Shown piece by piece: positions 1,880 through 64,000 of a stretch of DNA of 64,000 bases; position 1 is the first letter of the stretch, and the number at the start of each line of letters is the position of its first letter. A program made the translations under genes and the position numbers. The DNA lies in the IMG/VR virus record IMGVR_UViG_3300035310_000070. The stretch is one strand, 5' to 3'. The notes below the pieces were generated by a model. The model saw nothing but the letters and a program-made list of their open reading frames with translations, was not told the origin of the DNA and made no database searches. Source of the DNA: a virus.

Positions 1880-2875
1880 ATGGAGGTGTTTGCTTTGTCT
1901 AAGCGGCTTCTGGATTACGCCTCCGGTTTCGCCGCCTACATGCAGTCCGGCACGAACCTGTCTGAGCGGACCAGGCAGCTATACGCCTACGAGCTCACCC
2001 TTTTCGCTCGGAATGTAGAGAACCCTTTACTAACCGAGTTGTCGCCCCAAACCTTGCTCCAATGGAACCAGATGCTTTACGACGCCGGCGCCGCTGTCAA
2101 CACGATCAGCAGCAAGCACTCCGCTGTGAAAAAGTTCCTCGACTACCTGGAAGAGTTTCCGGAGGACAAGGAAACCGGTGAGCACGCCGGGCGGCTTCTC
2201 CGGTCCTTAAAACGGCTTCACACTCCAAGGGACCGGGAACCCCCCAGGAAACCCTTCTCTCTGGATGAAGGGCAGGTGTCCAAGATGCTGCAGGCGGCCG
2301 GAGCGCGCCTGGGCAGGGGGCCAAGAGACCGGGCCATGGTCCATCTGCTCTGGGCAGCGGGGATAAGACGCGCCGAACTTAGAGACCTGCTCCTGGATGA
2401 TTTAGACATGTCCGAGCGGCTGGCCACCGTCACAGGTAAGGGCGCAAAGACCCGAACTATAGTCTATGATGCTGATTGCAAAGAGGACCTGGTGAAGTGG
2501 CTGGAACTCCGGCTGTATTGGCGGGTCCCGACCGATGAGCAGCATGTTTTCGTGTCGGTCCAGGGCGGACCTCTGGCTCTAAACTACATTGGCGAGATGG
2601 TCCGGGAGATAGCCAAGGAAGCCGGCCTACGCAAAGAGGTCTGGACCCATTTGTTCAGGCACACCAGGGTCACCGCTTTGCTAAACAAGGGGATGGCGCT
2701 GCAGGAGGTGGCCAGCTTCGTTGGGCATACGAATGTTCAAACTACCATGGGGTACTACCATCAGGACACGGGCCGATTGAAGGATAGCTACGACCGGGCG
2801 ATGAAGCCAAAAAGAACGAAGGGAGCGCCCGCCCATACCACGGAGGAACCAACACCTGATGACGACCCAGAGTGA
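1880..2875 (+). CDS. Tyrosine recombinase/integrase (XerC/D-like)
   Basis: Catalytic R (GIRRAE), K (GKG), HxxR (HLFRH), GH and Y (MGYY); N-terminal SAM-like domain. Confidence 0.95.
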   Translation: MEVFALSKRLLDYASGFAAYMQSGTNLSERTRQLYAYELTLFARNVENPLLTELSPQTLLQWNQMLYDAGAAVNTISSKHSAVKKFLDYLEEFPEDKETGEHAGRLLRSLKRLHTPRDREPPRKPFSLDEGQVSKMLQAAGARLGRGPRDRAMVHLLWAAGIRRAELRDLLLDDLDMSERLATVTGKGAKTRTIVYDADCKEDLVKWLELRLYWRVPTDEQHVFVSVQGGPLALNYIGEMVREIAKEAGLRKEVWTHLFRHTRVTALLNKGMALQEVASFVGHTNVQTTMGYYHQDTGRLKDSYDRAMKPKRTKGAPAHTTEEPTPDDDPE

Positions 2876-9284: not shown

Positions 9285-10364
9285 ATGACGACGACCATTG
9301 TTCCAGATGTCCGACTGAGCGTCCCCGCGACGAAGAAACCCGCTGCCTGGCTGGTCCACTTCTGGATTTTGCCCCGCTGGTTCGCCCTCCCAGCTGCTCT
9401 CTGCCCGGTACTCTTGGGGTACTTCGCTGTTCGAGGCGAACCGGGTCTTGCGCTGGCCCTGGCCTTGGTCGCGGCCTCCGCGCTTGTGGCGTCACTTCAC
9501 TGCTGGAACTCGGTGGTGGACTGGCTCTCCGGAGTGGACAAGCCCGGAGGGTCCGTAGAGAAACCTTATACTTCTGGGTCCCAGGTCCTGCCCCGGGGCT
9601 GGGCCCCGTTGTGGGCGGTTATCGCGAATGCCCTCGCCTTCTTTGGCCTGGCCGTTGGCCTTACCGTCTGGCTCGGCTTCCTGGTGAACTCCTGGTGGCC
9701 GGCCTTCGGTTTCGGCATCGCGTTCATCTTCGGCGCCTTCTATTCGCCAGTCTGGAAATATTGGTACATGCCCGAGGCCTGCGGCCTGCTCGCATTCGGC
9801 GTAGGCGGGACCGCGCTGGGCATGTCGGTCTCTGGCAACGTGCCGGTCAAAGAAGCGTTTTTGCTGGGAATCGGGGTCTCCCTGCCCTTCGCAGTTTCGT
9901 GGGGCGTGGACCAAGCCTATGACGCCGCTTCTGATGTCCAGCGCGGGGTCCGGAATATCGGCGGGCTGCTCCACGTCACGGGGTTTCCCACGTGGGCCTA
10001 CACCGGTATCGGTGTGCTGTTCACCTACGCTTACGTCGTGTTCCTGGTGGCCATCGGGTCCCTGGGCCCCTGGGCCGGGCTTACCTTCCTAGCGATGCCA
10101 GCCTGGATTCTCTGCCTGGCCTGGCTCTACGCTCACGACCGCGTAAGTTTACCCTCTTCCACGCGTTTCTTCTCGGTCCTCGATCGCCCACTGAATCCAG
10201 AGCAAATAGAGGCCCGTTTGTCCGAAGAGAATCTAGCTGTAGAACAACGATTGGCTGAATATCACAGCCGACTGAAGCGGACCCTCGACCTGGGTGTCAG
10301 GTTCGGCCTGCTGGCTATTCTGGTCCACATGGTGGCCCTGGTGGTCGCTGAAGCCCTAAGATGA
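9285..10364 (+). CDS. UbiA-family (MenA-like) prenyltransferase
   Basis: Multi-TM; NSVVDWLSGVD and DQAYDAASDVQRG Asp-rich motifs. Confidence 0.85.
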   Translation: MTTTIVPDVRLSVPATKKPAAWLVHFWILPRWFALPAALCPVLLGYFAVRGEPGLALALALVAASALVASLHCWNSVVDWLSGVDKPGGSVEKPYTSGSQVLPRGWAPLWAVIANALAFFGLAVGLTVWLGFLVNSWWPAFGFGIAFIFGAFYSPVWKYWYMPEACGLLAFGVGGTALGMSVSGNVPVKEAFLLGIGVSLPFAVSWGVDQAYDAASDVQRGVRNIGGLLHVTGFPTWAYTGIGVLFTYAYVVFLVAIGSLGPWAGLTFLAMPAWILCLAWLYAHDRVSLPSSTRFFSVLDRPLNPEQIEARLSEENLAVEQRLAEYHSRLKRTLDLGVRFGLLAILVHMVALVVAEALR

Positions 10365-10597
10365 GCACTGCGAAAGAGGAACTTCCGGGGATGGAATTTG
10401 AAGGTCCCATGGGCCATTTCTGGGTCATGGAAGAGGTGCCTATGCCGGCCCTAATAGCCGCAATCGCTGAGTGCTTGGACGAGCTGATAAAACGCGGGTT
10501 CTCAGAGTCCCAAATCATGGAAATGGTTCACAGCCTTCAGGTAGATAGAATCGAGGAAATGATTCACCGCCTTCAGCAGGGAGAACGGAATGTCTGA
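10361..10597 (+). CDS. Hypothetical protein
   Basis: Coupled ORF inside the cluster. Confidence 0.65.
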   Translation: MSTAKEELPGMEFEGPMGHFWVMEEVPMPALIAAIAECLDELIKRGFSESQIMEMVHSLQVDRIEEMIHRLQQGERNV

Positions 10598-11627
10598 GTT
10601 AAAACCACGCATTACCAGCCTGGGTCACGCTGTGGCCGATAATGTGGTGATGTCCATAGAAGAGGCCGTCGAGTATTTTGGATATACCTCTGGAGTCGTG
10701 AAAGGCATCGCCCGTAATACTAAGGTGGCCGGGAAGCATTGGTGGTGCGACCCCCGGACCAGGTACAGCGTCCAACAGATGACAGAAGACTATGAGGCTG
10801 GGGCGCTGGCCCTGAGCTGCAAGGCTATAGACAACTGCTTGCAGGGCTACCCAGTTGAAAAGATCGGCACGTTCATCTACGCTTCTTGTACTAAGCAGCT
10901 AGACCTGACTCCAGGTATGGCCTTCAAAATCGCCGGCGCTCTCCGGATGCGCCCCGACGTCCGCATGGACGAGCCGACCGGATTAGGTTGCCAAGGAGCC
11001 CTTCCAAGCCTGGAGACTGCCTACGCCCACTTAGTGACCTTTGGGGAGCCAGTTTTGCTGATTGCCTGCGAAATTTGCTCCGCGACATTCTTTGATGCCC
11101 CGCAGGAAGATATTGGGAACACAATATCCAACCTCATTTTTTCAGACGGTGCTTCAGCTGCGTTGCTTGACTTTTCTGACAATCCGGGACTTCCTGCGAT
11201 AATTGGCTTTGACCGGTATTTTTCCAAGGACGGGGAACGCTTACTCGGCTATGACATTAAGGACGGACGCAAGAAAGTCCGGCTCTCCAAGGATGTCCGT
11301 ACTCAGGTCCCGCCGATGGTCGCCCAGACTGTTCAGAGGTTGCTAAAACGCCACAGCCTGACCACTGAAGATATCTCCAGCTGGTGCGTGCACAACGGCG
11401 GCGCAGCCATTCTCGACGAAATAGCCAATGACCTCGGGCTGAACAGCCAGTACGATTTCCGCTATTCTTGGGAGACCTTAAGGGAGTATGGCAATCTCTC
11501 CAGCGCGACAGTCGGGGTCGTGGCGGAGAAGATGCACGCGGACCCGATCAACCGCCACGGGTGGGTTGTAGGGGCCGCGATGGGAGCTGGGGCAGGGGTG
11601 GGAGCGGTGCTCTGCCGTTACGGCTAG
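10590..11627 (+). CDS. Type III polyketide synthase (chalcone/stilbene synthase fold)
   Basis: Triad GLGCQG, VHNGG, YGNLSS; FSDGASA. Confidence 0.93.
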   Translation: MSELKPRITSLGHAVADNVVMSIEEAVEYFGYTSGVVKGIARNTKVAGKHWWCDPRTRYSVQQMTEDYEAGALALSCKAIDNCLQGYPVEKIGTFIYASCTKQLDLTPGMAFKIAGALRMRPDVRMDEPTGLGCQGALPSLETAYAHLVTFGEPVLLIACEICSATFFDAPQEDIGNTISNLIFSDGASAALLDFSDNPGLPAIIGFDRYFSKDGERLLGYDIKDGRKKVRLSKDVRTQVPPMVAQTVQRLLKRHSLTTEDISSWCVHNGGAAILDEIANDLGLNSQYDFRYSWETLREYGNLSSATVGVVAEKMHADPINRHGWVVGAAMGAGAGVGAVLCRYG

Positions 11628-16789: not shown

Positions 16790-17458
16790 ATGGTTCGTCA
16801 GATATTCGGGGCTCTAACACCGGACCTTCCGATACGCGACGGCTTTCCACCGCATATCGACTCAAGGCTCTTGCCCAATAAGTTTCAGAATCTTCTGGCT
16901 GACTATGGCGGCACGCTGCCCATTCTCATATCGAAGGGCGACGACCTCACAGTCAGGGTCACGTTCGAAACCAAGGGGCCTCCTTTTATTTGCAAGGTCG
17001 GGGTGGGCCTTAATCTCACAACGGATGTCCGGAGGCTTCGCCCGGACGTCAACGTTGCCGTATGGCTGAGCGATACCAAGATCATCGCTCCTTCTTTGAC
17101 CTGGGCAAAACAAGAGGTCATTCTTAAAGGCAAGCTTATTTTTGAAGGAGAGCAGGAGCGCGATACAGTCGATGTATTAAAGGCTCTCGAGGTGCCTTTC
17201 CGCGACTTGGATATCGGTGGTGAGGATATGCTGCTGGCCGACTGGGACCGGGATGTTTACCGCGTTGGCGAGCGGCCTTTGCCGCCCATCCAAGGTCTAC
17301 CACGGTTGGGGGCCTATGGCGAAGGCCTACCCCCTTTAAGAGATATGCCGCCCATCCAAGGCCTACCACGGTTGGGGGCCTATGGCGAAGGCCTACCCCC
17401 TTTAAGAGATATGCCGCCCATCCAAGGTCTACCACGGTTGGGGGCCTACGGAGAGTAA
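16790..17458 (+). CDS. Beta-rich putative structural protein with C-terminal 22-aa repeats
   Basis: PPIQGLPRLGAYGEGLPPLRDM repeats. Confidence 0.75.
   Translation: MVRQIFGALTPDLPIRDGFPPHIDSRLLPNKFQNLLADYGGTLPILISKGDDLTVRVTFETKGPPFICKVGVGLNLTTDVRRLRPDVNVAVWLSDTKIIAPSLTWAKQEVILKGKLIFEGEQERDTVDVLKALEVPFRDLDIGGEDMLLADWDRDVYRVGERPLPPIQGLPRLGAYGEGLPPLRDMPPIQGLPRLGAYGEGLPPLRDMPPIQGLPRLGAYGE
17280..17458 (+). repeat. 66-bp tandem repeat, about 2.7 copies
   Basis: Copies start at 17280, 17346 and 17412 and are nearly identical. Confidence 0.95.
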
Positions 17459-47268: not shown

Positions 47269-48390
47269 TTAGGGATTCCCTGACGGTAGCGCACGCTGCC
47301 CAGTTACGATGTCAATTTGGAGTGCATTAGCCAAAGCATCAGCTTGAAGGCCGATGGTCGCCGCAAGCGCTTGGACAACCTCTCGTATGATGGGAACTGG
47401 TACAAAATCGTCGTCGTCATATTGGGCCAGATGAATACGGGTTGCTTCTTCGGCAATTGTGGTGTATGACAGCGCAATCCGGGAGAAGTGGTCTCTGGGG
47501 TTTTCCTTTGGAGTAATACCGAGTCTTTCCTTGAGACCCTGTGCGTCATCGTGGAAAACCCCTTTATACACGACGTTCGTCAAGGAGCCAATAATGAACC
47601 CGAATTGCTTCCTATCCTGGACGAGTGCATAGATTTGGGACACAAATTGCTTGCGCGTTATTACACTCTGTTCCCTAGTTACAATCCATGCTTCTGTTTT
47701 TCCATCCTGTAAGGCTTGTGTCCGCCTTGCGATTGCCAGCCGCTCTGCTGCCCCCTCCGGGTCCCGGCGGGCCTCATCCACAAACACGCCAGCTTTAGCC
47801 AGGAACTCCTTGATGGCCTTTAGTGCAGGACGCGTCTTGGTTATCTTAAGTTCTACCGCGATCCTATACAGACCTTCATCGGTGGTGAAATCCATCGTGA
47901 ATGTCCGACCATCGGCAAAAACGTACAACATCCCCTTGACAAGGGGGAGACCTCCTTTGTGTCTGTCCTTGAAGTTTTCCCACGTATGGCCGGGTCGCGT
48001 GCTGCCAGTGAGACCTGTAATCCAATCCTTGATGCTGAAGAACTCGTTATCCTCAACCTGATGGTGTTGAAGTGGGAAGCTCCACAACCTTGCCACATGG
48101 AGCGGTAGGGGGGTTGAAAGGTCAAGAGTATCCTTGCCATGAAAAGGAACAATAGAGCTCCGGACCATTGCGACCTCTCTAGGATTGGTATATCTCCGCT
48201 GCTTTGGTATGCGCCTGCGCCTAGCTAGCCCGTCAAGGGCATCGACCACCAGTTTGGCATTAGTGGGGTATCTGTCCCCGGCCTTCCACTTCTCAACAGC
48301 GTTGACGGTGACAGCCAACTCAGTCGCCAATGCCGCCAGCGTCCAGCCGTTTTCCTGTAGCTGCGCTATTCTCTCTTGAACATTGTTCAC
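47269..48390 (-). CDS. Xre-HTH plus BRO-N/antirepressor-like protein
   Basis: TLAALATELAVTVNAVEKW; FSIKDWI...ADG...LYRI. Confidence 0.7.
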   Translation of the reverse strand: MNNVQERIAQLQENGWTLAALATELAVTVNAVEKWKAGDRYPTNAKLVVDALDGLARRRRIPKQRRYTNPREVAMVRSSIVPFHGKDTLDLSTPLPLHVARLWSFPLQHHQVEDNEFFSIKDWITGLTGSTRPGHTWENFKDRHKGGLPLVKGMLYVFADGRTFTMDFTTDEGLYRIAVELKITKTRPALKAIKEFLAKAGVFVDEARRDPEGAAERLAIARRTQALQDGKTEAWIVTREQSVITRKQFVSQIYALVQDRKQFGFIIGSLTNVVYKGVFHDDAQGLKERLGITPKENPRDHFSRIALSYTTIAEEATRIHLAQYDDDDFVPVPIIREVVQALAATIGLQADALANALQIDIVTGQRALPSGNP

Positions 48391-48501
48391 GCCGCAATAT
48401 TACCATACGGTGTATGGCTTAGTCAATACGCCTCTGCTCTTGACAAGACCATACAGTGTATGGTATTATACATATGGATTGAGTTGGAGCGTGTAGATAC
48501 A

Positions 48502-49734
48502 ATGGACGCCAGAGAAGAGCGGGGATTGGCAATAGCGGCAAAGTGTAAGATCACCAAGAAGGGCGACGCCTGGCTGGTGCCATCCCAAAGCCAAGACGGT
48601 GAGAAGTACACGGTCATTCCAGGAACGAAATGCTCCTGCCCAGACCACGAGGTTCGCCAGGTCAAGTGCAAGCACCTCTGGGCCGTAGAGTATGTCCTGG
48701 AGCGGGAGACGGCGCAAGACGGGACTATCACCGAAACTGAGACCGTCAAGGTCATCAAGGTCACGCGCAAGACCTATCCGCAGAACTGGCCAGCCTACAA
48801 CGCGGCTCAATCCGAGGAAAAGACTCGGTTCGGCGTCCTGCTGGCGGACCTCTGCAAGGGCATCGAACAGCCCGTCCATGAGGGCAGGGGCCGTCCGGCA
48901 CTCCCCTTGGCCGACATGCTCTTTGCTTCGGCCTACAAGGTCTACACCGGCTTCTCGTCGCGGCGTTTCACCAGCGACCTCCGGGACGCCAAGACCGATG
49001 GCTTGGTTGTCAGCGCCCCGCACTTCAACTCGGTCACAAACTACTTGGCGAACCCTGACATGACGCCGATCCTGAAGCACCTGGTCATGGTCAGCAGCCT
49101 CCCGCTCAAAGCTGTTGAAACTCAATTCGCTGTGGATTCCAGCGGGTTCACCACTTCCAGATTCATTCGCTGGTTCAATAAGAAGTACGGGCGGGAGATT
49201 GATAATCGGGAATGGGTAAAAGTGCATCTGATGTGCGGCGTGAACACCCACGTCGTTACCAGCGTGGATGTGAGCGGATGGGAAGCCAATGATACCAGCT
49301 ACTTCGTCCCGCTCTTGGAGCAGACCGCCCGGAACTTCCAGATGATTGAAGTCTCGGCTGATAAGGCGTACCTGAGCCACAAGAACTTGGCAGCGGTCGA
49401 GGCTATCAACGGTACTCCCTTCGTCCCGTTCAAGAGCAACACCGTCGCCACTACCGAGAACTCGGCCTGGGGCCGGATGTATCATTACTTCATGCTGAAC
49501 CGGGAAACCTTCTTGACTCATTACCATCGCCGCTCAAACGTTGAAACCGTGTTCTCGATGTGCAAGGCGAAGTTTGGGGACTCAGTTCGGAGCAAGACTG
49601 ACACCGGTATGGTCAACGAGGTACTTTGCAAGGTTTTGTGTCATAATATCTGCGTGCTGATCCAGGCAGTCCACGAGTTGGGAGTCGAGCCGAATTTTTG
49701 TGCAGAAATCAGCCTTGCACAAAAAGTGGCCTGA
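48502..49734 (+). CDS. DDE transposase with N-terminal SWIM finger
   Basis: CSCPD...CKH; AVDSSG, ADKAY, YHRRSNVETVF. Confidence 0.93.
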   Translation: MDAREERGLAIAAKCKITKKGDAWLVPSQSQDGEKYTVIPGTKCSCPDHEVRQVKCKHLWAVEYVLERETAQDGTITETETVKVIKVTRKTYPQNWPAYNAAQSEEKTRFGVLLADLCKGIEQPVHEGRGRPALPLADMLFASAYKVYTGFSSRRFTSDLRDAKTDGLVVSAPHFNSVTNYLANPDMTPILKHLVMVSSLPLKAVETQFAVDSSGFTTSRFIRWFNKKYGREIDNREWVKVHLMCGVNTHVVTSVDVSGWEANDTSYFVPLLEQTARNFQMIEVSADKAYLSHKNLAAVEAINGTPFVPFKSNTVATTENSAWGRMYHYFMLNRETFLTHYHRRSNVETVFSMCKAKFGDSVRSKTDTGMVNEVLCKVLCHNICVLIQAVHELGVEPNFCAEISLAQKVA

Positions 49735-54438: not shown

Positions 54439-55713
54439 CAAGCCACACTGTCTTCTGAGTCGGGCGCAACCTCACCTTCCTGAGCCGCCGGCCTGTCGGT
54501 CGCGCTTATATGCATTGGCATGACCAGCACATCGGGGCTGCCCAAGTTGAAGAATCTCCCCGGAGACGACGGGTCTGAGGTCTCCAGCAGCACCGGCCCC
54601 GACTTCCCTGCCAGGTAATCGTTCAGATACCTGATGTGGAACGCGATTTTGCCCTCGCCGCCCTGGGCGTGGCCGCGAACGCTGCTGGAGACTAGCCCGG
54701 CCTCTTCAGCTTTGGCAGATAAGACCAGACTGTTCTCGGACCAGTTGAGACGGACGCCTTCCGCTTCCGCCGGCCGCGATGTCCGCCAGGGACCTGATGG
54801 CCCGCAACGCTTCCTCGGCGTCAAAAGTCACCTTGTGGGGCAGGTCAGTGGGGATAAGCTGGTGGTAATCAGGGAATGACCCCTGGGTCAACTGGACCCA
54901 GATGGTCACTGCTCCGTGATGAAAGCTCAAGAGCGTCGGAGTGAACCTAATAGCCGCCATGCGGCTGGCCACGGCTAGCATCGCCATCGGGAAGCTCCCA
55001 TCCTTTTTCAGGGGATTGGAGATGCCGGCATCCGGGACCGTGGGCTGCTTTTCTATCAGCTTCCACACCTTGGCCAGGGTGTGCACCGCTGCGGTGGGCA
55101 CCAGCAAGTGTTTCAGCCCTTCCGTGGAAGGGTCGGGCGCAGGTAGAGCCACAGGGATGGTTTGCCAGGCCAGGCGGAAGCCATCGGCGCCGACCATCTC
55201 TACTGGGTCCCCCAGGGCGATGCACACGCACTGCAGGACCGGGCGGCTGTCCTCGGTGGCCGCGTATCCAGCGAGGGCAGTAGCGGTCTTGAGAAAGAGG
55301 TCACCGTCCACCTGGCCCTCACCGATGGGTTGCAGCTCGGGCAAAGATCCCTGGCCCTCACCGATGGGTTGCAGCTCGGGCAAAGGAGGGAAGTCAGCGA
55401 CTTCTCCCGGCACTGGGAAACCAGCAATGGCGGCCCCTGCCGTTAGGTTGATCCACTCGCCTTCACGGCTGAGTGTGAGGCGCGTCGGACCGGGGATATT
55501 CTTCAGCAGATTGAGTACCTGTTTGTGAGGCAAAACTACCGGGTCGTCGGTGGCCTCGGGGAAGTCCAGGTTGATTGCCGTCTCCAGGTTGGTGGCGTAG
55601 GCCCTGCCCTGGCCGAGCACCACGTTTTGTAGGATGGGCAGCGTGGTCCTCTTTGCCACGGCGGGCTCTAGGACTTGGAGTGCATACCTTAATCTTTGCA
55701 CAGTTGTTTCCAT
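54435..55713 (-). pseudogene. dnaN: DNA polymerase III beta-clamp homolog, frameshifted near 54765, with a 39-bp duplication
   Basis: TTLPILQNV, ATNLE, DSRPVL, ADGFRL, GSFPDY; domain 3 (IAFHIRYLND) in another frame. Confidence 0.8.
55311..55385. repeat. 39-bp tandem duplication
   Basis: A 36-bp identical block starts at 55311 and at 55350. Confidence 0.95.
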
Positions 55714-56388: not shown

Positions 56389-56423
56389 TGTGACCCGATC
56401 CCCCAAGCGGGGATCGGGTCACA
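56389..56423 (-). terminator. Perfect 15-bp hairpin closing the array transcript
   Basis: TGTGACCCGATCCCC stem, 5-nt loop, then ATTTT on the minus strand. Confidence 0.75.
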
Positions 56424-56591
56424 CCCTGCCGCGCCGCGCCCAGCCGCGCCGCACCAAGCCCTGCCAGGCCAGGCCTAGCCCCGCCCGGCCCCGCCGAGCC
56501 CGGCCTTGCCTCGTCACACCGAAGATGATTACAACCTCGCCTCGCCTCACCACACCACGCCAAGCCTCACCTGGCCGTGCCACGCCCAGCC
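56421..56591 (-). ncRNA. GGY-NN pentamer array A (tracts of 12 and 18 units), candidate guide RNA
   Basis: Every unit is GGC/GGT plus a variable dinucleotide; fills the gap after the ParB stop. Confidence 0.8.
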
Positions 56592-56599
56592 CCGACGTG

Positions 56600-57271
56600 T
56601 TACGCTGATTGTTGCAGCTTCTCGGCCAGCAGCTCAAATAGCCGGTTTAACGTGGCGACCACCTGGCTCCGCTTCCAGTCAATGGAGTCTGTTTCCAGTA
56701 GCGCCACCACCTGGTTGATGTAGAAAAGCTGGTCCATGCCCCCCGCTCGCCGCAAGTGACCCGCTTGTTCCTCAGTCAGTGTCTCGCCCGCCAGGTGCCC
56801 CATCGTGCGTTTGAGAACCTCACCGCTGGCCGCCACGCGCTCCAGCAGCATTTTTTCGGCCCGTTCTACTGTGATGTTTAAGGCCCCGGAAATCACTTCA
56901 CGGGTGATCCCCATCTCTTTAGCGACCAACAAGCACCTGGTTTTATCGTAGAGGGTTAAATTGCGCCCATGCGCTGCGTTCAGCATGACAGCCTCTTGAA
57001 ACATGGAGGCTTCGTCGGGATATGTGCGCAACTCAACGTCAATCTCGGCATTTGGGCCGTGAAGTTTTTGGCTGGCGCGGACCCGGTGGAAGCCGTCGAT
57101 GATCCGCTTGCTCTTGCGGTCTGCGATAACCGGAGGGAATGTCGCGCCTGCGGTCATGGCTTCCGCCATCTCGCGCACATGGTATTCGTCCACCTGGGCC
57201 CGGGGATACAGGTGGAAATCCTGGACTAGAGAACTGGCAGGTATTTTTGTTATGAGCTTTCTTGCTGCCAT
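56600..57271 (-). CDS. ParB/Srx-domain protein
   Basis: FPPVI...IIDGFHRV...LNAAHG. Confidence 0.9.
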   Translation of the reverse strand: MAARKLITKIPASSLVQDFHLYPRAQVDEYHVREMAEAMTAGATFPPVIADRKSKRIIDGFHRVRASQKLHGPNAEIDVELRTYPDEASMFQEAVMLNAAHGRNLTLYDKTRCLLVAKEMGITREVISGALNITVERAEKMLLERVAASGEVLKRTMGHLAGETLTEEQAGHLRRAGGMDQLFYINQVVALLETDSIDWKRSQVVATLNRLFELLAEKLQQSA

Positions 57272-57301
57272 AGTGCCCCCTCAAAACCGGATTAGGGTTA
57301 G

Positions 57302-57467
57302 ATACCTCGCCTGGCCCGGCCTCGCCCGGCCTCGCCTGGCCCGGCCTCGCCTGGCCTCGCCGCGCCAGGCCCGGCCCGGTCGCACCGAAGAGGATTACAA
57401 CCTCGCCTCGCCAAGCCACGCCCCGCCTGGCCTCGCCGCGCCTCGCCTCGCCTCGCCTCGCCAGGCC
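57302..57467 (-). ncRNA. GGY-NN pentamer array B (tracts of 14 and 15 units), candidate guide RNA
   Basis: Begins right after the RAMP-like stop codon; shares a 34-nt linker with array A. Confidence 0.8.
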
Positions 57468-57477
57468 TTGTCACACT

Positions 57478-58053
57478 TCAGGACTCGATTACCCGCATAG
57501 AGCCCACATCAAAGGTCCCGTACCAGCCCTTTTTCTGCGGCCGGTAGTCCAAAATCCCAATTGATTGCCCGGATACGCTCAAGGCGTCTATCAGAACCGA
57601 TTGAATCCCCTCGGCGTCCAGGATGGTCGTATTCAGGTTGAAGTTGAACACCACAACCCAAGGGGGGTCGATTCGTGCCCTTGACCGCATGATGCCTTGA
57701 CGTTGCACCACCGCCCGCTGGGTATCCACGACCCAATCGCGTATCGGCTCGCCGGCCGGTGTGGTCAGCGGAAACAGCAGGTCCGACGGCAAGAGGGAAC
57801 CGGCAATGATGGGGGATGCGGCACGACGGTTGATGCGAAGCCCGGTACACCCAGCCAATATATTGTTCCGAACCGCCACGGCGGGGACGCATAGGTCGCC
57901 ATTGGGGAGGCGGTAGGTGCTGGCTTTTGCTTCGTCTTCCGGGGAGGGGATGGCCTTTCTGCCAATCGAGCGTGTAGATGGGAACATTGAGCCACTGGGG
58001 TTGTGCATCAAGAGGGGGGTCTTGCCAATGAGGGTGCCTTGAAGAATCGCCAT
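57478..58053 (-). CDS. Stand-alone RAMP/Cas7-like protein (Vipr-like), 191 aa
   Basis: TLIGKTPLLMH, YRLPNGDLCVPAVAVR, Gly-rich end GQSIGILDYRPQKKGWYGTF; GGAG RBS. Confidence 0.75.
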   Translation of the reverse strand: MAILQGTLIGKTPLLMHNPSGSMFPSTRSIGRKAIPSPEDEAKASTYRLPNGDLCVPAVAVRNNILAGCTGLRINRRAASPIIAGSLLPSDLLFPLTTPAGEPIRDWVVDTQRAVVQRQGIMRSRARIDPPWVVVFNFNLNTTILDAEGIQSVLIDALSVSGQSIGILDYRPQKKGWYGTFDVGSMRVIES

Positions 58054-58174
58054 GATTATTCTCCCTGGACCGCTACTCAAATTCACGGCCGCTTCAAATA
58101 AGTTGGTCTAGTTTCAAATCCCAGAATTGATAACGCCCGTTTTACTTCATCGGCGCCCTCCTAAAATGGAGTCC

Positions 58175-58317
58175 CTGCCTCGCCATGCCGAGCCAAGCCG
58201 CGCCTAGCCCCGCCCCGCCATGCCCTGCCAGGTATTTCGGATAAGGTCATCCTTGCCCTGCCCGGCCTCGCCTTGCCACGCCTTGCCAAGCCCCGCCTTG
58301 CCAAGCCCCGCCAAGCC
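58175..58317 (-). ncRNA. GGC-NN pentamer array C (tracts of 13 and 11 units), candidate guide RNA
   Basis: 24 perfect GGC-NN units split by a 23-nt linker. Confidence 0.8.
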
Positions 58318-58347
58318 ATCCCGTGCTTCGCACAAATTGAAATTATG

Positions 58348-63436: not shown

Positions 63437-63670
63437 ATGAACCGCCGAGAGAAGGCAGTCTACCAAGAGTATCTAGACCAAGGGTATGGGGTCCTTCGTA
63501 ATGGCGCACCCGACTTTGTGATCCTGAAAACCGAAGGAGGTGAGATTCAAGAGGTTATCGCCGGGGTAGAGGTGAAAAGTCCTGGTGGTAGAATGTCGCA
63601 CGAGCAGCTGGTCTGGAAGAAGATTTTTGAGAAGGCGGGCATTCCCTTCCTCGTGCGCGTCGTACCATGA
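63437..63670 (+). CDS. VRR-NUC-like PD-(D/E)xK nuclease
   Basis: GAPDF...VEVKS...S.EQ..W. Confidence 0.8.
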   Translation: MNRREKAVYQEYLDQGYGVLRNGAPDFVILKTEGGEIQEVIAGVEVKSPGGRMSHEQLVWKKIFEKAGIPFLVRVVP

Positions 63671-63672
63671 GG

Positions 63673-63772
63673 CCTTACCACCCCAGTCCAGCCCAAGCCG
63701 TTCCAATCCAAGCCACCCTTTGCCACTCCAATCCATCCGACACCATGCCAAGCCAGGCCAACCCCAACCATT
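63673..63772 (+). repeat. CCA-NN pentamer array D (20 units)
   Basis: 15 of 20 units begin exactly with CCA; the dinucleotides vary. Confidence 0.85.
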
Positions 63773-63787
63773 TTCATAGGAGACCTC

Positions 63788-64000
63788 ATGCACAAAACAT
63801 ACCGCTTACATCTAAGGGATGTTTTCGGAGGTGACGGGGAAGTCCGCCACATCACCCTCGAAGAGCCACGGGTCACTCGTACCCGGTCCACCACCACCAA
63901 ACGCCTGGATACCAAGGTTGCAACTGAGAGTGGTTATGAGGAGCTCCAACTCGAGAAGTCCCTAAAAGAGGTGGCTACTTTCCGTAAGGACGCTGAGGGT
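63788..64000 (+). CDS. Truncated hypothetical protein, possibly a second RAMP-like protein
   Basis: AGGAG RBS; open to the window end: MHKTYRLHL...ATFRKDAEG. Confidence 0.6.
   Translation, partial: MHKTYRLHLRDVFGGDGEVRHITLEEPRVTRTRSTTTKRLDTKVATESGYEELQLEKSLKEVATFRKDAEG

What the first reader, a model, noticed from the sequence alone, without database searches (positions are those of the whole stretch)
56389..58322. Stand-alone RAMP/Cas7-like gene flanked by GGY-NN pentamer arrays: candidate non-CRISPR RNA-guided system with a gapped code
Seen: on the coding (minus) strand the order is array C, 191-aa protein, array B, ParB-like gene, array A, then a perfect 15-bp hairpin. The arrays fill the intergenic spaces and form six tracts of 13, 11, 14, 15, 12 and 18 units. 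All 83 units are GGC (75) or GGT (8) plus a freely varying dinucleotide, which simple slippage repeats would not produce. Known: TLIGKTPLLMH, NGDLCVPAVAVR and the Gly-rich G..R..KGWYGTF end follow RAMP/Cas7 (Csm3/Cmr4-type) motifs, and Cas7 polymerises on guide RNA with fixed periodicity. Inference: each protomer grips GGY and displays NN for target pairing. No cas1, cas5, cas6 or nuclease is present, so the output is probably silencing of competing viruses. This matches my recollection of recently reported VIPR (GGY/NN) systems, which should be checked; this instance with six guides is probably undescribed.
Basis: partly seen in the sequence, partly recalled or inferred. Interest (0 to 1): 0.96.

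Follow-up and report, generated by a model that had tools for sequence, protein, structure and literature searches.

The report
Phage VIPR guide-RNA system, ParB-type accessory
This phage-like element carries a complete VIPR system, a CRISPR-related RNA-guided DNA-silencing system first described in 2026, so it is a new example of a known kind; its accessory gene is ParB-like, and one guide may target rival prophages' integrase genes.

Summary
Six minus-strand tracts hold 83 GGY-NN pentamers (75 GGC, 8 GGT). They flank a 191-aa gene and a ParB-like gene and end in a 15-bp hairpin.

Evidence for membership:
- The 191-aa protein folds as a Cas7/Csm3-type RAMP.
- Its five best non-CRISPR structural matches are the five founding Vipr proteins named in the discovery paper.
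- Its family profile aligns over its full length with the tested SUSP1 Vipr.
- It keeps the residues that read GGY.
- Of 41 homologue loci, 31 carry same-strand GGY-NN tracts (1,200 units) and none carry opposite-strand tracts.

What is particular to this locus:
- The accessory gene has a ParB/Noc/KorB fold, is unrelated to SUSP1 vap1, and is syntenic in 19 loci.
- The tracts end in a short constant GGCRA-GGCRA-GGTT handle.
- The variable part of guide T5 matches, under the 1-nt-skip rule, a conserved motif (TTKSWVTQ) in large serine recombinases of proviruses. This is a lead only.

The other five guides have no target. Expression could not be tested. This scan has found VIPR loci on other DNA several times before. 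A second, non-canonical CCA-NN array with another RAMP-like gene lies at the window's end.

The parts
58253..58317 (-). vrRNA tract T1 (array C, upstream of vipr): 13 GGC-NN units. NN = TT GG TT AA GG TT AA GT AA GA CG AG AA.
   Evidence: No target was found.
58230..58252 (-). 23-nt linker between T1 and T2. It may form a weak 5-bp hairpin, which is not significant.
   Evidence: z = -0.03.
58175..58229 (-). vrRNA tract T2: 11 GGC-NN units. NN = AG AT GG GG TA GC TT TC AT GA AG.
   Evidence: There were no exact hits in IMG/VR and six chance-like hits in metagenomes.
57478..58053 (-). vipr gene: a 191-aa RAMP (Cas7/Csm3-like) protein, the filament subunit that binds GGY.
   Evidence: Model pLDDT is 89. 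Foldseek against PDB gives top hits that are all Csm3/Cas7. VIA gives Z = 12.5 to Csm3 6ae2_B. The top AFDB matches are X1U2U4, A0A0F9A1L0, A0A661D0E2 and A0A1F4YLN4, with A0A2D6XG06 at rank 7; these are the founding Viprs. hhalign to SUSP1 Vipr gives probability 97.8%, E 1e-12. phrog_4652 matches full length at E 6e-9.
57398..57467 (-). vrRNA tract T3: 14 units, ending in the constant handle GGCGA GGCGA GGTTG.
57377..57397 (-). 21-nt linker of array B, nearly identical to the linker of array A. It contains GGTGCGAC two bases before T4.
57302..57376 (-). vrRNA tract T4: 15 units with low-complexity NN (GA/CA/CG repeated).
56600..57271 (-). Accessory gene: a 223-aa ParB/Noc/KorB-like protein (ParB N-terminal NTPase-type domain plus HTH). 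YPR and DGFHR are invariant across the clade.
   Evidence: phrog_1033 ParB-like at 1e-10. The profile hits solved ParB and Noc structures at E 2e-6. Model pLDDT is 95. Foldseek top hits are Noc, ParB, KorB and Spo0J. The gene is syntenic in 19 homologue loci, one a duplicate contig. It is not related to SUSP1 vap1.
56532..56591 (-). vrRNA tract T5: 12 units. There are 9 variable units (TG GT AC CA GA TT GT GT GA) followed by the handle GGCGA GGCGA GGTTG.
   Evidence: Units 1-8 match a serine-recombinase motif in 33 IMG/VR contigs.
56511..56531 (-). 21-nt linker of array A, containing GGTGTGAC two bases before T6.
56421..56510 (-). vrRNA tract T6: 18 units, the longest guide.
   Evidence: No target was found.
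56389..56423 (-). Intrinsic-terminator-like hairpin that closes the locus: 15 pairs, a 5-nt loop, then ATTTT. It overlaps the GGTGTGAC motif at the end of T6.
   Evidence: -35.3 kcal/mol, z = -5.5.

Best explanation
The locus 56389-58317 (minus strand) is a complete VIPR (Viral Interference Programmable Repeat) system carried by a phage-like, probably temperate element.

The locus may be transcribed as one unit that ends at the hairpin; no promoter or transcript was seen. It holds six GGY/NN repeat RNAs (vrRNAs). Vipr protomers (the 191-aa RAMP) assemble one per pentamer into a helical filament. They sequester each GGY and present each NN. The NN dinucleotides pair with double-stranded DNA, skipping every third target base, and the bound filament blocks transcription of a competitor's gene.

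Shown here: the anatomy, the RAMP fold, homology to tested Vipr proteins, conservation of the GGY-reading residues, and co-inheritance of gene and arrays.

Inferred from the published family: filament assembly, the 1-nt-skip code and silencing.

Inferred from this clade only:
- The last units of each tract (GGCRA GGCRA GGTT) are a constant 3' handle rather than guide.
- The ParB/KorB-like protein is this clade's accessory factor, perhaps a nucleotide-switched DNA clamp that reinforces silencing.

Tentative (about 0.4): guide T5 is aimed at the codons for TTKSWVTQ in the large serine recombinase (integrase) of rival proviruses. This element itself uses a tyrosine integrase and would be spared.
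For: - Arrays: six same-strand tracts of 11-18 GGYNN units flank the genes. The published range is 9-16 units, flanking vipr.
- Fold: AlphaFold model pLDDT 89, pTM 0.83. The top 50 Foldseek matches in PDB are CRISPR RAMP backbone subunits, mostly Csm3 (best E 2e-6). VIA gives Z = 12.5 to Csm3.
- Family: the best AFDB clusters are X1U2U4 (E 9e-14, TM 0.77/0.82), A0A0F9A1L0, A0A661D0E2, A0A1F4YLN4 and A0A2D6XG06. These are exactly the five founding Vipr hits listed in the discovery paper's Methods.
- Homology: hhalign of the family profile to SUSP1 Vipr (identified by the paper's residue numbering) gives probability 97.8%, E 1e-12, over the full length.
- Key residues: SUSP1 H17, R138 and D177-W178-R179 align with H17, R125 and D169-Y170-R171. 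R125, D169 and R171 are invariant in 27 homologues, Y170 nearly so, and H17 is in most.
- Co-inheritance: 31 of 41 homologue loci hold same-strand tracts, with 1,200 units against 0 on the other strand. NN differ completely between close relatives.
- Accessory gene: ParB-like, adjacent in 19 loci, one a duplicate contig, with a ParB/Noc/KorB fold.
- Context: tyrosine integrase, RecT, primase-helicase, clamp and homing endonucleases. 38 homologue loci lie in IMG/VR viral contigs.
- No self-match beyond chance.
- T5: an exact scan of IMG/VR with units 1-8 gave 45 hits. 33 lie in one diverse family of Resolvase+Recombinase(+Zn-ribbon) genes, wobble-aligned, with 23 distinct contexts of median 74% identity; 5 of 5 checked are proviruses, and GC is 55-68%. 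A scrambled control gave 12 hits, nine of them near-identical copies.
- Precedent: SUSP1 VIPR silences a satellite's serine recombinase through an 18-bp wobble-aligned footprint (10.64898/2026.10.15.759431).
Against: - No expression or RNA-binding data exist: no sequencing run was listed, and no sigma-70-type promoter was found.
- No conserved structured tail like the SUSP1 pseudoknot was found. The linker folds are no better than shuffles, and Rfam finds no ribozyme.
- Five of the six guides have no plausible target in IMG/VR or JGI metagenomes at exact 8-10-unit seeds. T3 and T4 have low-complexity NN strings and may be degenerate.
- The T5 match covers only 8 units (16 read bases). Unit 9 mismatches.
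- No other guide of this locus or of related loci converges on the same proviruses.
- The closest cultured relatives of the recombinase (AcaML1, Ralstonia YO134_1) match only 13-14 of 18.
- An earlier, similar motif-target claim in this scan partly fell on later checking.
- The host is unknown.
Confidence: 0.9

Rival explanations
1. The locus is a decaying or idle VIPR remnant. The genes are intact, but the guides no longer match anything and the system does no work in this element.
For: Five of six guides have no target. T3 and T4 contain runs of GGCGA and repeated 15- and 25-nt sub-patterns that look like slippage.
Against: Both ORFs are intact and the key residues are conserved. All 83 units keep GGY with an unbroken register. 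Missing targets are expected when the host and its mobile elements are not in the databases, and only exact seeds could be searched.
Confidence: 0.05
2. The pentamer arrays are DNA elements, not RNA genes. They would be centromere-like or iteron repeats bound by the ParB-like protein, forming a partition or maintenance cassette of a plasmid-prophage.
For: A ParB-fold protein sits between two arrays. ParB proteins bind repeated DNA sites. The terminal hairpin is also a perfect inverted repeat.
Against: Arrays accompany the RAMP gene in many loci that lack any ParB homologue (for example L020, L024, L027, L030, L032-L036, L041). Strand polarity relative to the RAMP gene is absolute (1,200 units against 0). 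NN are hypervariable, whereas centromere repeats are conserved. No ParA partner lies next to the locus. The protein is homologous to a tested RNA-guided Vipr.
Confidence: 0.02
3. The system regulates the element's own genes, for example a lysis-lysogeny decision, rather than attacking competitors.
For: VIPR acts as a transcriptional repressor. The element has an integrase and so has a temperate life cycle to regulate.
Against: No guide matches the 64-kb window better than shuffled guides do: the best is 19 of 24, and 16 of 20 for the variable part. The published surveys also found no self-targets at 80% or above. About 4.5 kb of the contig lies outside the window and was not searched.
Confidence: 0.03

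Closest known systems
Type II VIPR system of Escherichia phage SUSP1 (Vipr + vap1 + four vrRNAs), bioRxiv 10.64898/2026.04.26.720920, .720927 and 10.64898/2026.10.15.759431
   Same: Both have a lone ~190-aa RAMP protein that is homologous over its full length, with the GGY-reading His, Arg and Asp-aromatic-Arg retained. Both have same-strand GGY/NN tracts before and after the genes, one small accessory gene directly downstream of vipr, a phage context and no self-targets.
   Different: - Identity to SUSP1 Vipr is only about 20-23%.
- The repeats are GGC-rich rather than GGT-rich.
- The accessory gene is ParB-like and unrelated to vap1 (hhalign probability 0.3%).
- Arrays lie in three intergenic spaces, two tracts each, separated by 21-23-nt linkers.
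- The 3' end of each tract is a short constant GGCRA-GGCRA-GGTT handle, with no detectable pseudoknot tail.
- The tracts reach 18 units.
Founding Vipr proteins X1U2U4, A0A0F9A1L0, A0A661D0E2, A0A1F4YLN4 and A0A2D6XG06 (VIPR discovery pipeline)
   Same: They are the nearest predicted structures to this protein's model, with TM up to 0.77/0.82 and E 9e-14.
   Different: Sequence identity is 11-22%. Their loci were not examined here, and the published type assignment (I-VII) of this clade could not be read because the figures and tables are not held.
CRISPR type III backbone subunits Csm3/Cmr4 (Cas7 family)
   Same: They share an RRM core with a thumb and a C-terminal glycine-rich loop, and they polymerise on a guide RNA with fixed periodicity. 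The fold matches at Z 10-12.5.
   Different: There is no CRISPR array and no cas10, cas5, cas6 or cas1 in the window. The periodicity is 5 nt with 2 read bases, rather than 6 nt with 5 read. The target is dsDNA (published). Sequence identity is about 10-13%.
ParB/Noc/KorB CTP-dependent DNA clamps
   Same: The accessory protein has the ParB N-terminal domain followed by an HTH. Box I (PR) and the last arginine of box II align. KorB is a clamp that represses transcription.
   Different: Box II reads DGFHR instead of GERRxR. No parS site or ParA partner was identified. Nucleotide binding is untested. The protein is 223 aa, and its C-terminal helices have no assigned function.
Other VIPR loci already reported by this scan (for example e1-5326736, e1-4763532, e1-5113667)
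   Same: Each has a lone RAMP gene plus pentamer guide arrays in uncultivated phages, and each was classed as a new member of the known kind.
   Different: This locus has a ParB-type accessory gene and a second, CCA-NN array system in the same element.

Membership tests
VIPR system | The Vipr protein is a minimal RAMP: RRM core, thumb and glycine-rich loop, with no second RRM. | tested here: met
   The model (pLDDT 89) matches Csm3/Cmr4 over residues 1-191. A C-terminal GxxGxxDYRPxxKGWYG loop is present.
VIPR system | Homology to established Vipr proteins. | tested here: met
   hhalign to SUSP1 Vipr gives 97.8% probability, E 1e-12. The nearest AFDB clusters are the five founding Viprs.
VIPR system | Residues that read G1, G2 and Y3 of GGY (SUSP1 H17, R138, D177, W178, R179). 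| tested here: met
   They align with H17, R125, D169, Y170 and R171. R125, D169 and R171 are invariant in the 27-sequence alignment, Y170 is nearly so, and H17 is present in most.
VIPR system | vrRNA genes are tandem GGY/NN (YNNGG) pentamers, about 9-16 units, in the intergenic DNA flanking vipr. | tested here: met
   Six tracts of 11-18 units, 83 of 83 GGY, on the same strand as vipr.
VIPR system | GGY is conserved and NN hypervariable among related loci. | tested here: met
   31 of 41 homologue loci have same-strand tracts, and the NN strings are unrelated even at 76% protein identity.
VIPR system | An invariable, structured 3' tail after each repeat tract. | tested here: inconclusive
   A constant GGCRA-GGCRA-GGTT end is conserved across the clade, and arrays A and B share a 21-nt linker. 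Predicted folds are no better than shuffles, and no covariation is available.
VIPR system | An accessory vap gene next to vipr. | tested here: met
   The ParB-like gene is syntenic in 19 loci, one a duplicate contig. It is not vap1. Whether it is one of the published vap2-6 genes could not be read.
VIPR system | vrRNAs are expressed and co-purify with Vipr. | not testable with these tools
   No sequencing run was listed for this DNA.
VIPR system | Natural targets under the 1-nt-skip rule at 80% NN match or above, with no self-targets. | tested here: inconclusive
   T5 matches 16 of 18 variable bases to a provirus serine-recombinase family. The other guides have none. There is no self-match beyond chance.
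CRISPR-Cas type III (Csm/Cmr) | A CRISPR repeat-spacer array and partner cas genes (cas10, cas5-like, small subunit, cas6). | tested here: not met
   There is no array of 25-40-nt repeats in the window. The neighbouring ORFs give no Cas families.
ParB/Noc/KorB CTPase clamps (for the accessory protein) | A ParB N-terminal domain followed by an HTH DNA-binding domain. | tested here: met
   The profile hits ParB and Noc structures over residues 18-155. Foldseek top hits are Noc, ParB, KorB and Spo0J.
ParB/Noc/KorB CTPase clamps (for the accessory protein) | The box II GERRxR CTP-binding motif, and a cognate parS-type site. | tested here: not met
   The clade has an invariant DGFHR, with only the last Arg retained. 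No parS-like site was identified. CTP binding is not testable here.

The most novel reading that the evidence does not exclude
In this clade the VIPR filament works with a ParB/KorB-type nucleotide-switched clamp. The clamp would be loaded at the RNA-guided site and spread along the target DNA, turning a 24-50-bp footprint into regional silencing.

The same phage also runs a second, orthogonal pentamer-code system (a RAMP-like protein with sense-strand CCA/NN arrays and a VRR-NUC gene). It would therefore hold two independent guide pools. One guide of the first pool (T5) is aimed at an invariant motif of rival proviruses' serine integrases.
Probability: 0.12. Interest if true: 0.65.

Novelty: new member of a known kind. 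Interest (0 to 1): 0.3.

Why it matters
It adds a well-resolved environmental example to a system described only months ago. It also gives three concrete handles for that field.

1. A ParB/KorB-fold accessory protein is conserved with vipr in 19 viral loci. This suggests a testable link between RNA-guided binding and clamp-type silencing.
2. A short constant 3' handle (GGCRA-GGCRA-GGTT) in this clade may mark where the filament starts or stops.
3. A candidate natural target class, large serine integrases of proviruses, echoes the one experimentally shown VIPR target, a satellite's serine recombinase.

None of this changes what VIPR is understood to be.

Tried and rejected
- PDB sequence search with the 191-aa protein found no Vipr entry.
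- Pfam and NCBIfam have no family for it.
- The window's own contig could not be fetched beyond the window, and no whole genome is held.
- No sequencing run was listed, so transcription could not be examined.
- No sigma-70-type promoter was found.
- Rfam found no ribozyme or known RNA in the arrays.
- Linker and tail folds are not better than shuffles.

Target searches that gave nothing:
- T6 units 1-10 and 5-12 in IMG/VR, and units 5-14 in JGI metagenomes.
- T1 units 1-10. Units 4-11 gave only AT-rich chance-like hits.
- T2 units 1-9 in IMG/VR. In metagenomes there were six hits, one in a sulfatase gene, with no family.
- Local scans of the window, 41 homologue loci, 45 T5-hit loci and five whole proviruses showed no excess of 1-nt-skip matches over 0- or 2-nt-skip or shuffled guides, for any guide other than T5.
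- Cultured relatives of the recombinase (AcaML1, Ralstonia YO134_1) do not carry the T5 footprint.

Other attempts:
- Only one GTDB genome (an Acidiferrales MAG) holds a relative, so no host could be inferred.
- The Vipr-ParB complex prediction gave no verdict.
- The ParB-like protein is not related to SUSP1 vap1.
- The supplementary tables of the VIPR paper are not held, so the type (I-VII) and vap number could not be assigned.
- Records behind L120 and L121 are not held.
Full report
**Observation.** On the minus strand the region reads: array C, a 191-aa ORF, array B, a 223-aa ORF, array A, then a hairpin. They hold 13, 11, 14, 15, 12 and 18 units, 83 in all, 75 GGC and 8 GGT, and lie nowhere else in the 64 kb. 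The hairpin has 15 pairs and folds at -35 kcal/mol, z = -5.5. Tandem Repeats Finder reports the period-5 arrays and nothing CRISPR-like.

**What is known.** A full-text search finds:
- The discovery preprint (10.64898/2026.04.26.720920). It describes a Vipr RAMP protein plus vrRNAs of 9-16 YNNGG repeats with a 3' tail, the 1-nt-skip code for dsDNA, 667 representative systems in seven types, six vap accessory genes, and mostly viral or proviral hosts.
- The cryo-EM preprint (10.64898/2026.04.26.720927). One protomer binds per repeat. GGY is read by H17, R138 and D177-W178-R179.
- A preprint of October 2026. It shows that SUSP1 VIPR needs both Vipr and Vap1, and that it immobilises a satellite by silencing its serine recombinase through an 18-bp wobble-aligned footprint.
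- A language-model survey that reports non-canonical pentamer motifs.

**Is the 191-aa protein a Vipr?** It has no Pfam or NCBIfam family, and matches only phrog_4652 of unknown function. With an alignment of 26 homologues, AlphaFold gives a confident model with pLDDT 89.
- Foldseek against PDB returns Csm3/Cas7-type subunits throughout the top 50.
- An exhaustive VIA search gives Z = 12.5 to Csm3 6ae2_B, followed by Cmr4, Cas7-11 and type IV and type I Cas7.
- Against AlphaFold DB clusters, the four best hits and the seventh are X1U2U4, A0A0F9A1L0, A0A661D0E2, A0A1F4YLN4 and A0A2D6XG06. These are the five proteins the discovery paper names as the founding Vipr hits.
- I located the SUSP1 locus in KT454805.2. 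The paper's residue numbers fit ORF L042:28474-29061.
- The family profile aligns with that protein over its full length, at probability 97.8%, E 1e-12.
- In that alignment SUSP1 H17, R138 and D177-W178-R179 fall on H17, R125 and D169-Y170-R171. R125, D169 and R171 are invariant in the family, Y170 is nearly invariant, and H17 is present in most members.

Membership is therefore met on fold, on homology and on the residues that read GGY.

**Do homologues carry arrays?** Yes. Loci came from Logan, NCBI and ENA assemblies, 38 IMG/VR viral contigs and the single hit among GTDB species genomes. Of these 41 loci, 31 have same-strand GGYNN tracts of six or more units. Together they hold 1,200 units, against none on the opposite strand. 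Two further loci have degenerate GG-phased blocks. The NN strings are unrelated even in the closest relative, at 76% protein identity.

**Features of this clade.**

1. The tracts end in a constant GGCRA GGCRA GG(T)TT. In this window the ends read GGCGA GGCGA GGTTG (T3, T5), GGCGA GGTAT (T4), GGCAG GGCAA GGATG (T1), GGCGA GGCAG GGACT (T2) and GGCAG GGTGT (T6). The last two or three units are thus a handle rather than guide.
   - Arrays A and B share an almost identical 21-nt linker.
   - GGTGYGAC lies two bases before T4 and before T6 and at the end of T6. That is three of the six copies in the window, within about 1 kb.
   - I found no significant tail structure and no ribozyme.

2. The gene after vipr is ParB-like. 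It matches phrog_1033. A profile of 17 homologues hits solved ParB, Noc and Spo0J structures. The model (pLDDT 95) matches Noc, ParB, KorB and Spo0J.
   - Box I (YPR) is invariant. Box II is an invariant DGFHR, not GERR.
   - The gene is adjacent to vipr in 19 loci, one a duplicate contig.
   - It is unrelated to SUSP1 vap1.
   - Whether it is one of the published vap2-6 cannot be told from the text held. No held paper has both "vrRNA" and "ParB".
   - A complex prediction for Vipr with this protein gave no verdict.

**Context.** The window encodes a tyrosine integrase, RecT, a primase-helicase, a sliding clamp, HNH and LAGLIDADG endonucleases, an IS-type transposase and a large glycan cluster. 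It is a phage-like, probably temperate element of 58% GC. No host can be named.

**Targets.** No guide matches the window itself better than chance. Exact scans were the only kind available.
- T6, T1 and T2 gave nothing convincing.
- Units 1-8 of T5 gave 45 IMG/VR hits. Of these, 33 lie in one diverse family of large serine recombinases with Resolvase, Recombinase and Zn-ribbon domains.
- The footprint is the antisense of the codons for TTKSWVTQ, so the skipped bases are the wobble positions. There are 23 distinct contexts with median 74% identity.
- The contigs have 55-68% GC. All five that were checked are proviruses, with the gene near an end.
- A scrambled-order control gave 12 hits, nine of them near-identical copies of one sequence.
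- With the handle excluded, T5 matches 16 of 18 variable bases.
- The window has no serine recombinase.

Against this reading: unit 9 mismatches. No other guide converges on these proviruses. Cultured relatives of the recombinase carry variant motifs and match only 13-14 of 18. Only one control could be run. A similar motif-target claim elsewhere in this scan partly fell on later checking. I rate this target at about 0.4.

**Verdict.** This is a genuine VIPR system and a new member of a known kind. This scan has already reported several VIPR loci on other DNA. The mechanism is taken from the published family. Expression and binding remain untested here.

**In passing.** A second period-5 array lies at 63672-63771, with 20 CCA-NN units on the plus strand. 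It sits between a VRR-NUC-like gene and a gene cut by the window's end.
- Full-length homologues of the cut gene are 204-214 aa.
- They are flanked by sense-strand CCA-NN arrays, about 75 units in L120 and L121, and are preceded by a VRR-NUC gene in L121 and L122.
- In the ESM Atlas their nearest structures are viral RAMP-superfamily clusters, PF03787 RAMPs and Cas7.
- They show no profile similarity to Vipr.
- CCA/NN is not named in the text of the papers read.

This looks like a second, non-canonical VIPR-like system in the same element and deserves its own follow-up.

Noticed in passing
window 63437-64000 (+ strand): This is a second pentamer array with 20 CCA-NN units (63672-63771), lying between a VRR-NUC-like gene (63437-63670) and a gene cut by the window's end (63788 onward).

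Homologues of the cut gene are 204-214 aa. They have sense-strand CCA-NN arrays of up to ~75 units, and a VRR-NUC gene lies upstream in L121 and L122. Their nearest ESM Atlas structures are RAMP, Cas7 and Cas5 clusters. It is probably a second, non-canonical VIPR-like system whose repeat polarity is opposite to GGY/NN.

   Followed up: partly
window 1880-2875 (+): This is a tyrosine integrase (Phage_integrase, E 2e-28), so the element is probably temperate or integrative. It has no serine recombinase.
   Followed up: partly
L045-L089 (IMG/VR), for example L087:4744-6249 and L060:10461-12032: A diverse family of provirus large serine recombinases shares an invariant TTKSWVTQ motif whose codon positions 1-2 equal T5 units 1-8. 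The nearest cultured relatives are Acidithiobacillus phage AcaML1 Gp3 and Ralstonia phage YO134_1, which carry variant motifs.
   Followed up: yes
L002:3250-3425 and window linkers 56511-56531 and 57377-57397: The inter-tract linkers of a relative with 51% Vipr identity are ~60 nt long. They also contain GAGTGTGAC shortly before the next tract, as in this window's GGTGYGAC. This may be a conserved processing or 5'-boundary signal.
   Followed up: partly
window 48376-49734 (+): This is a DDE transposase with an N-terminal SWIM zinc finger (DDE_Tnp_1, E 7e-19), an insertion sequence inside the phage-like element.
   Followed up: no
window 17280-17448 and 55311-55385: There is a 66-nt tandem repeat of 2.6 copies at 98% identity. 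There is also a perfect 39-nt duplication inside the sliding-clamp-like gene, which repeats the peptide LPELQPIGEGQ.
   Followed up: no
L118 (DATBYF010000055.1, Candidatus Acidiferrales MAG): This is the only relative of this Vipr clade among 185,579 GTDB species genomes. It has small GGYNN tracts just downstream. The clade is otherwise confined to viral and metagenomic contigs.
   Followed up: partly
window 9285-11627 (+): A UbiA-type prenyltransferase and a type III polyketide synthase-like gene lie in a phage-like element. These are unusual auxiliary genes.
   Followed up: no
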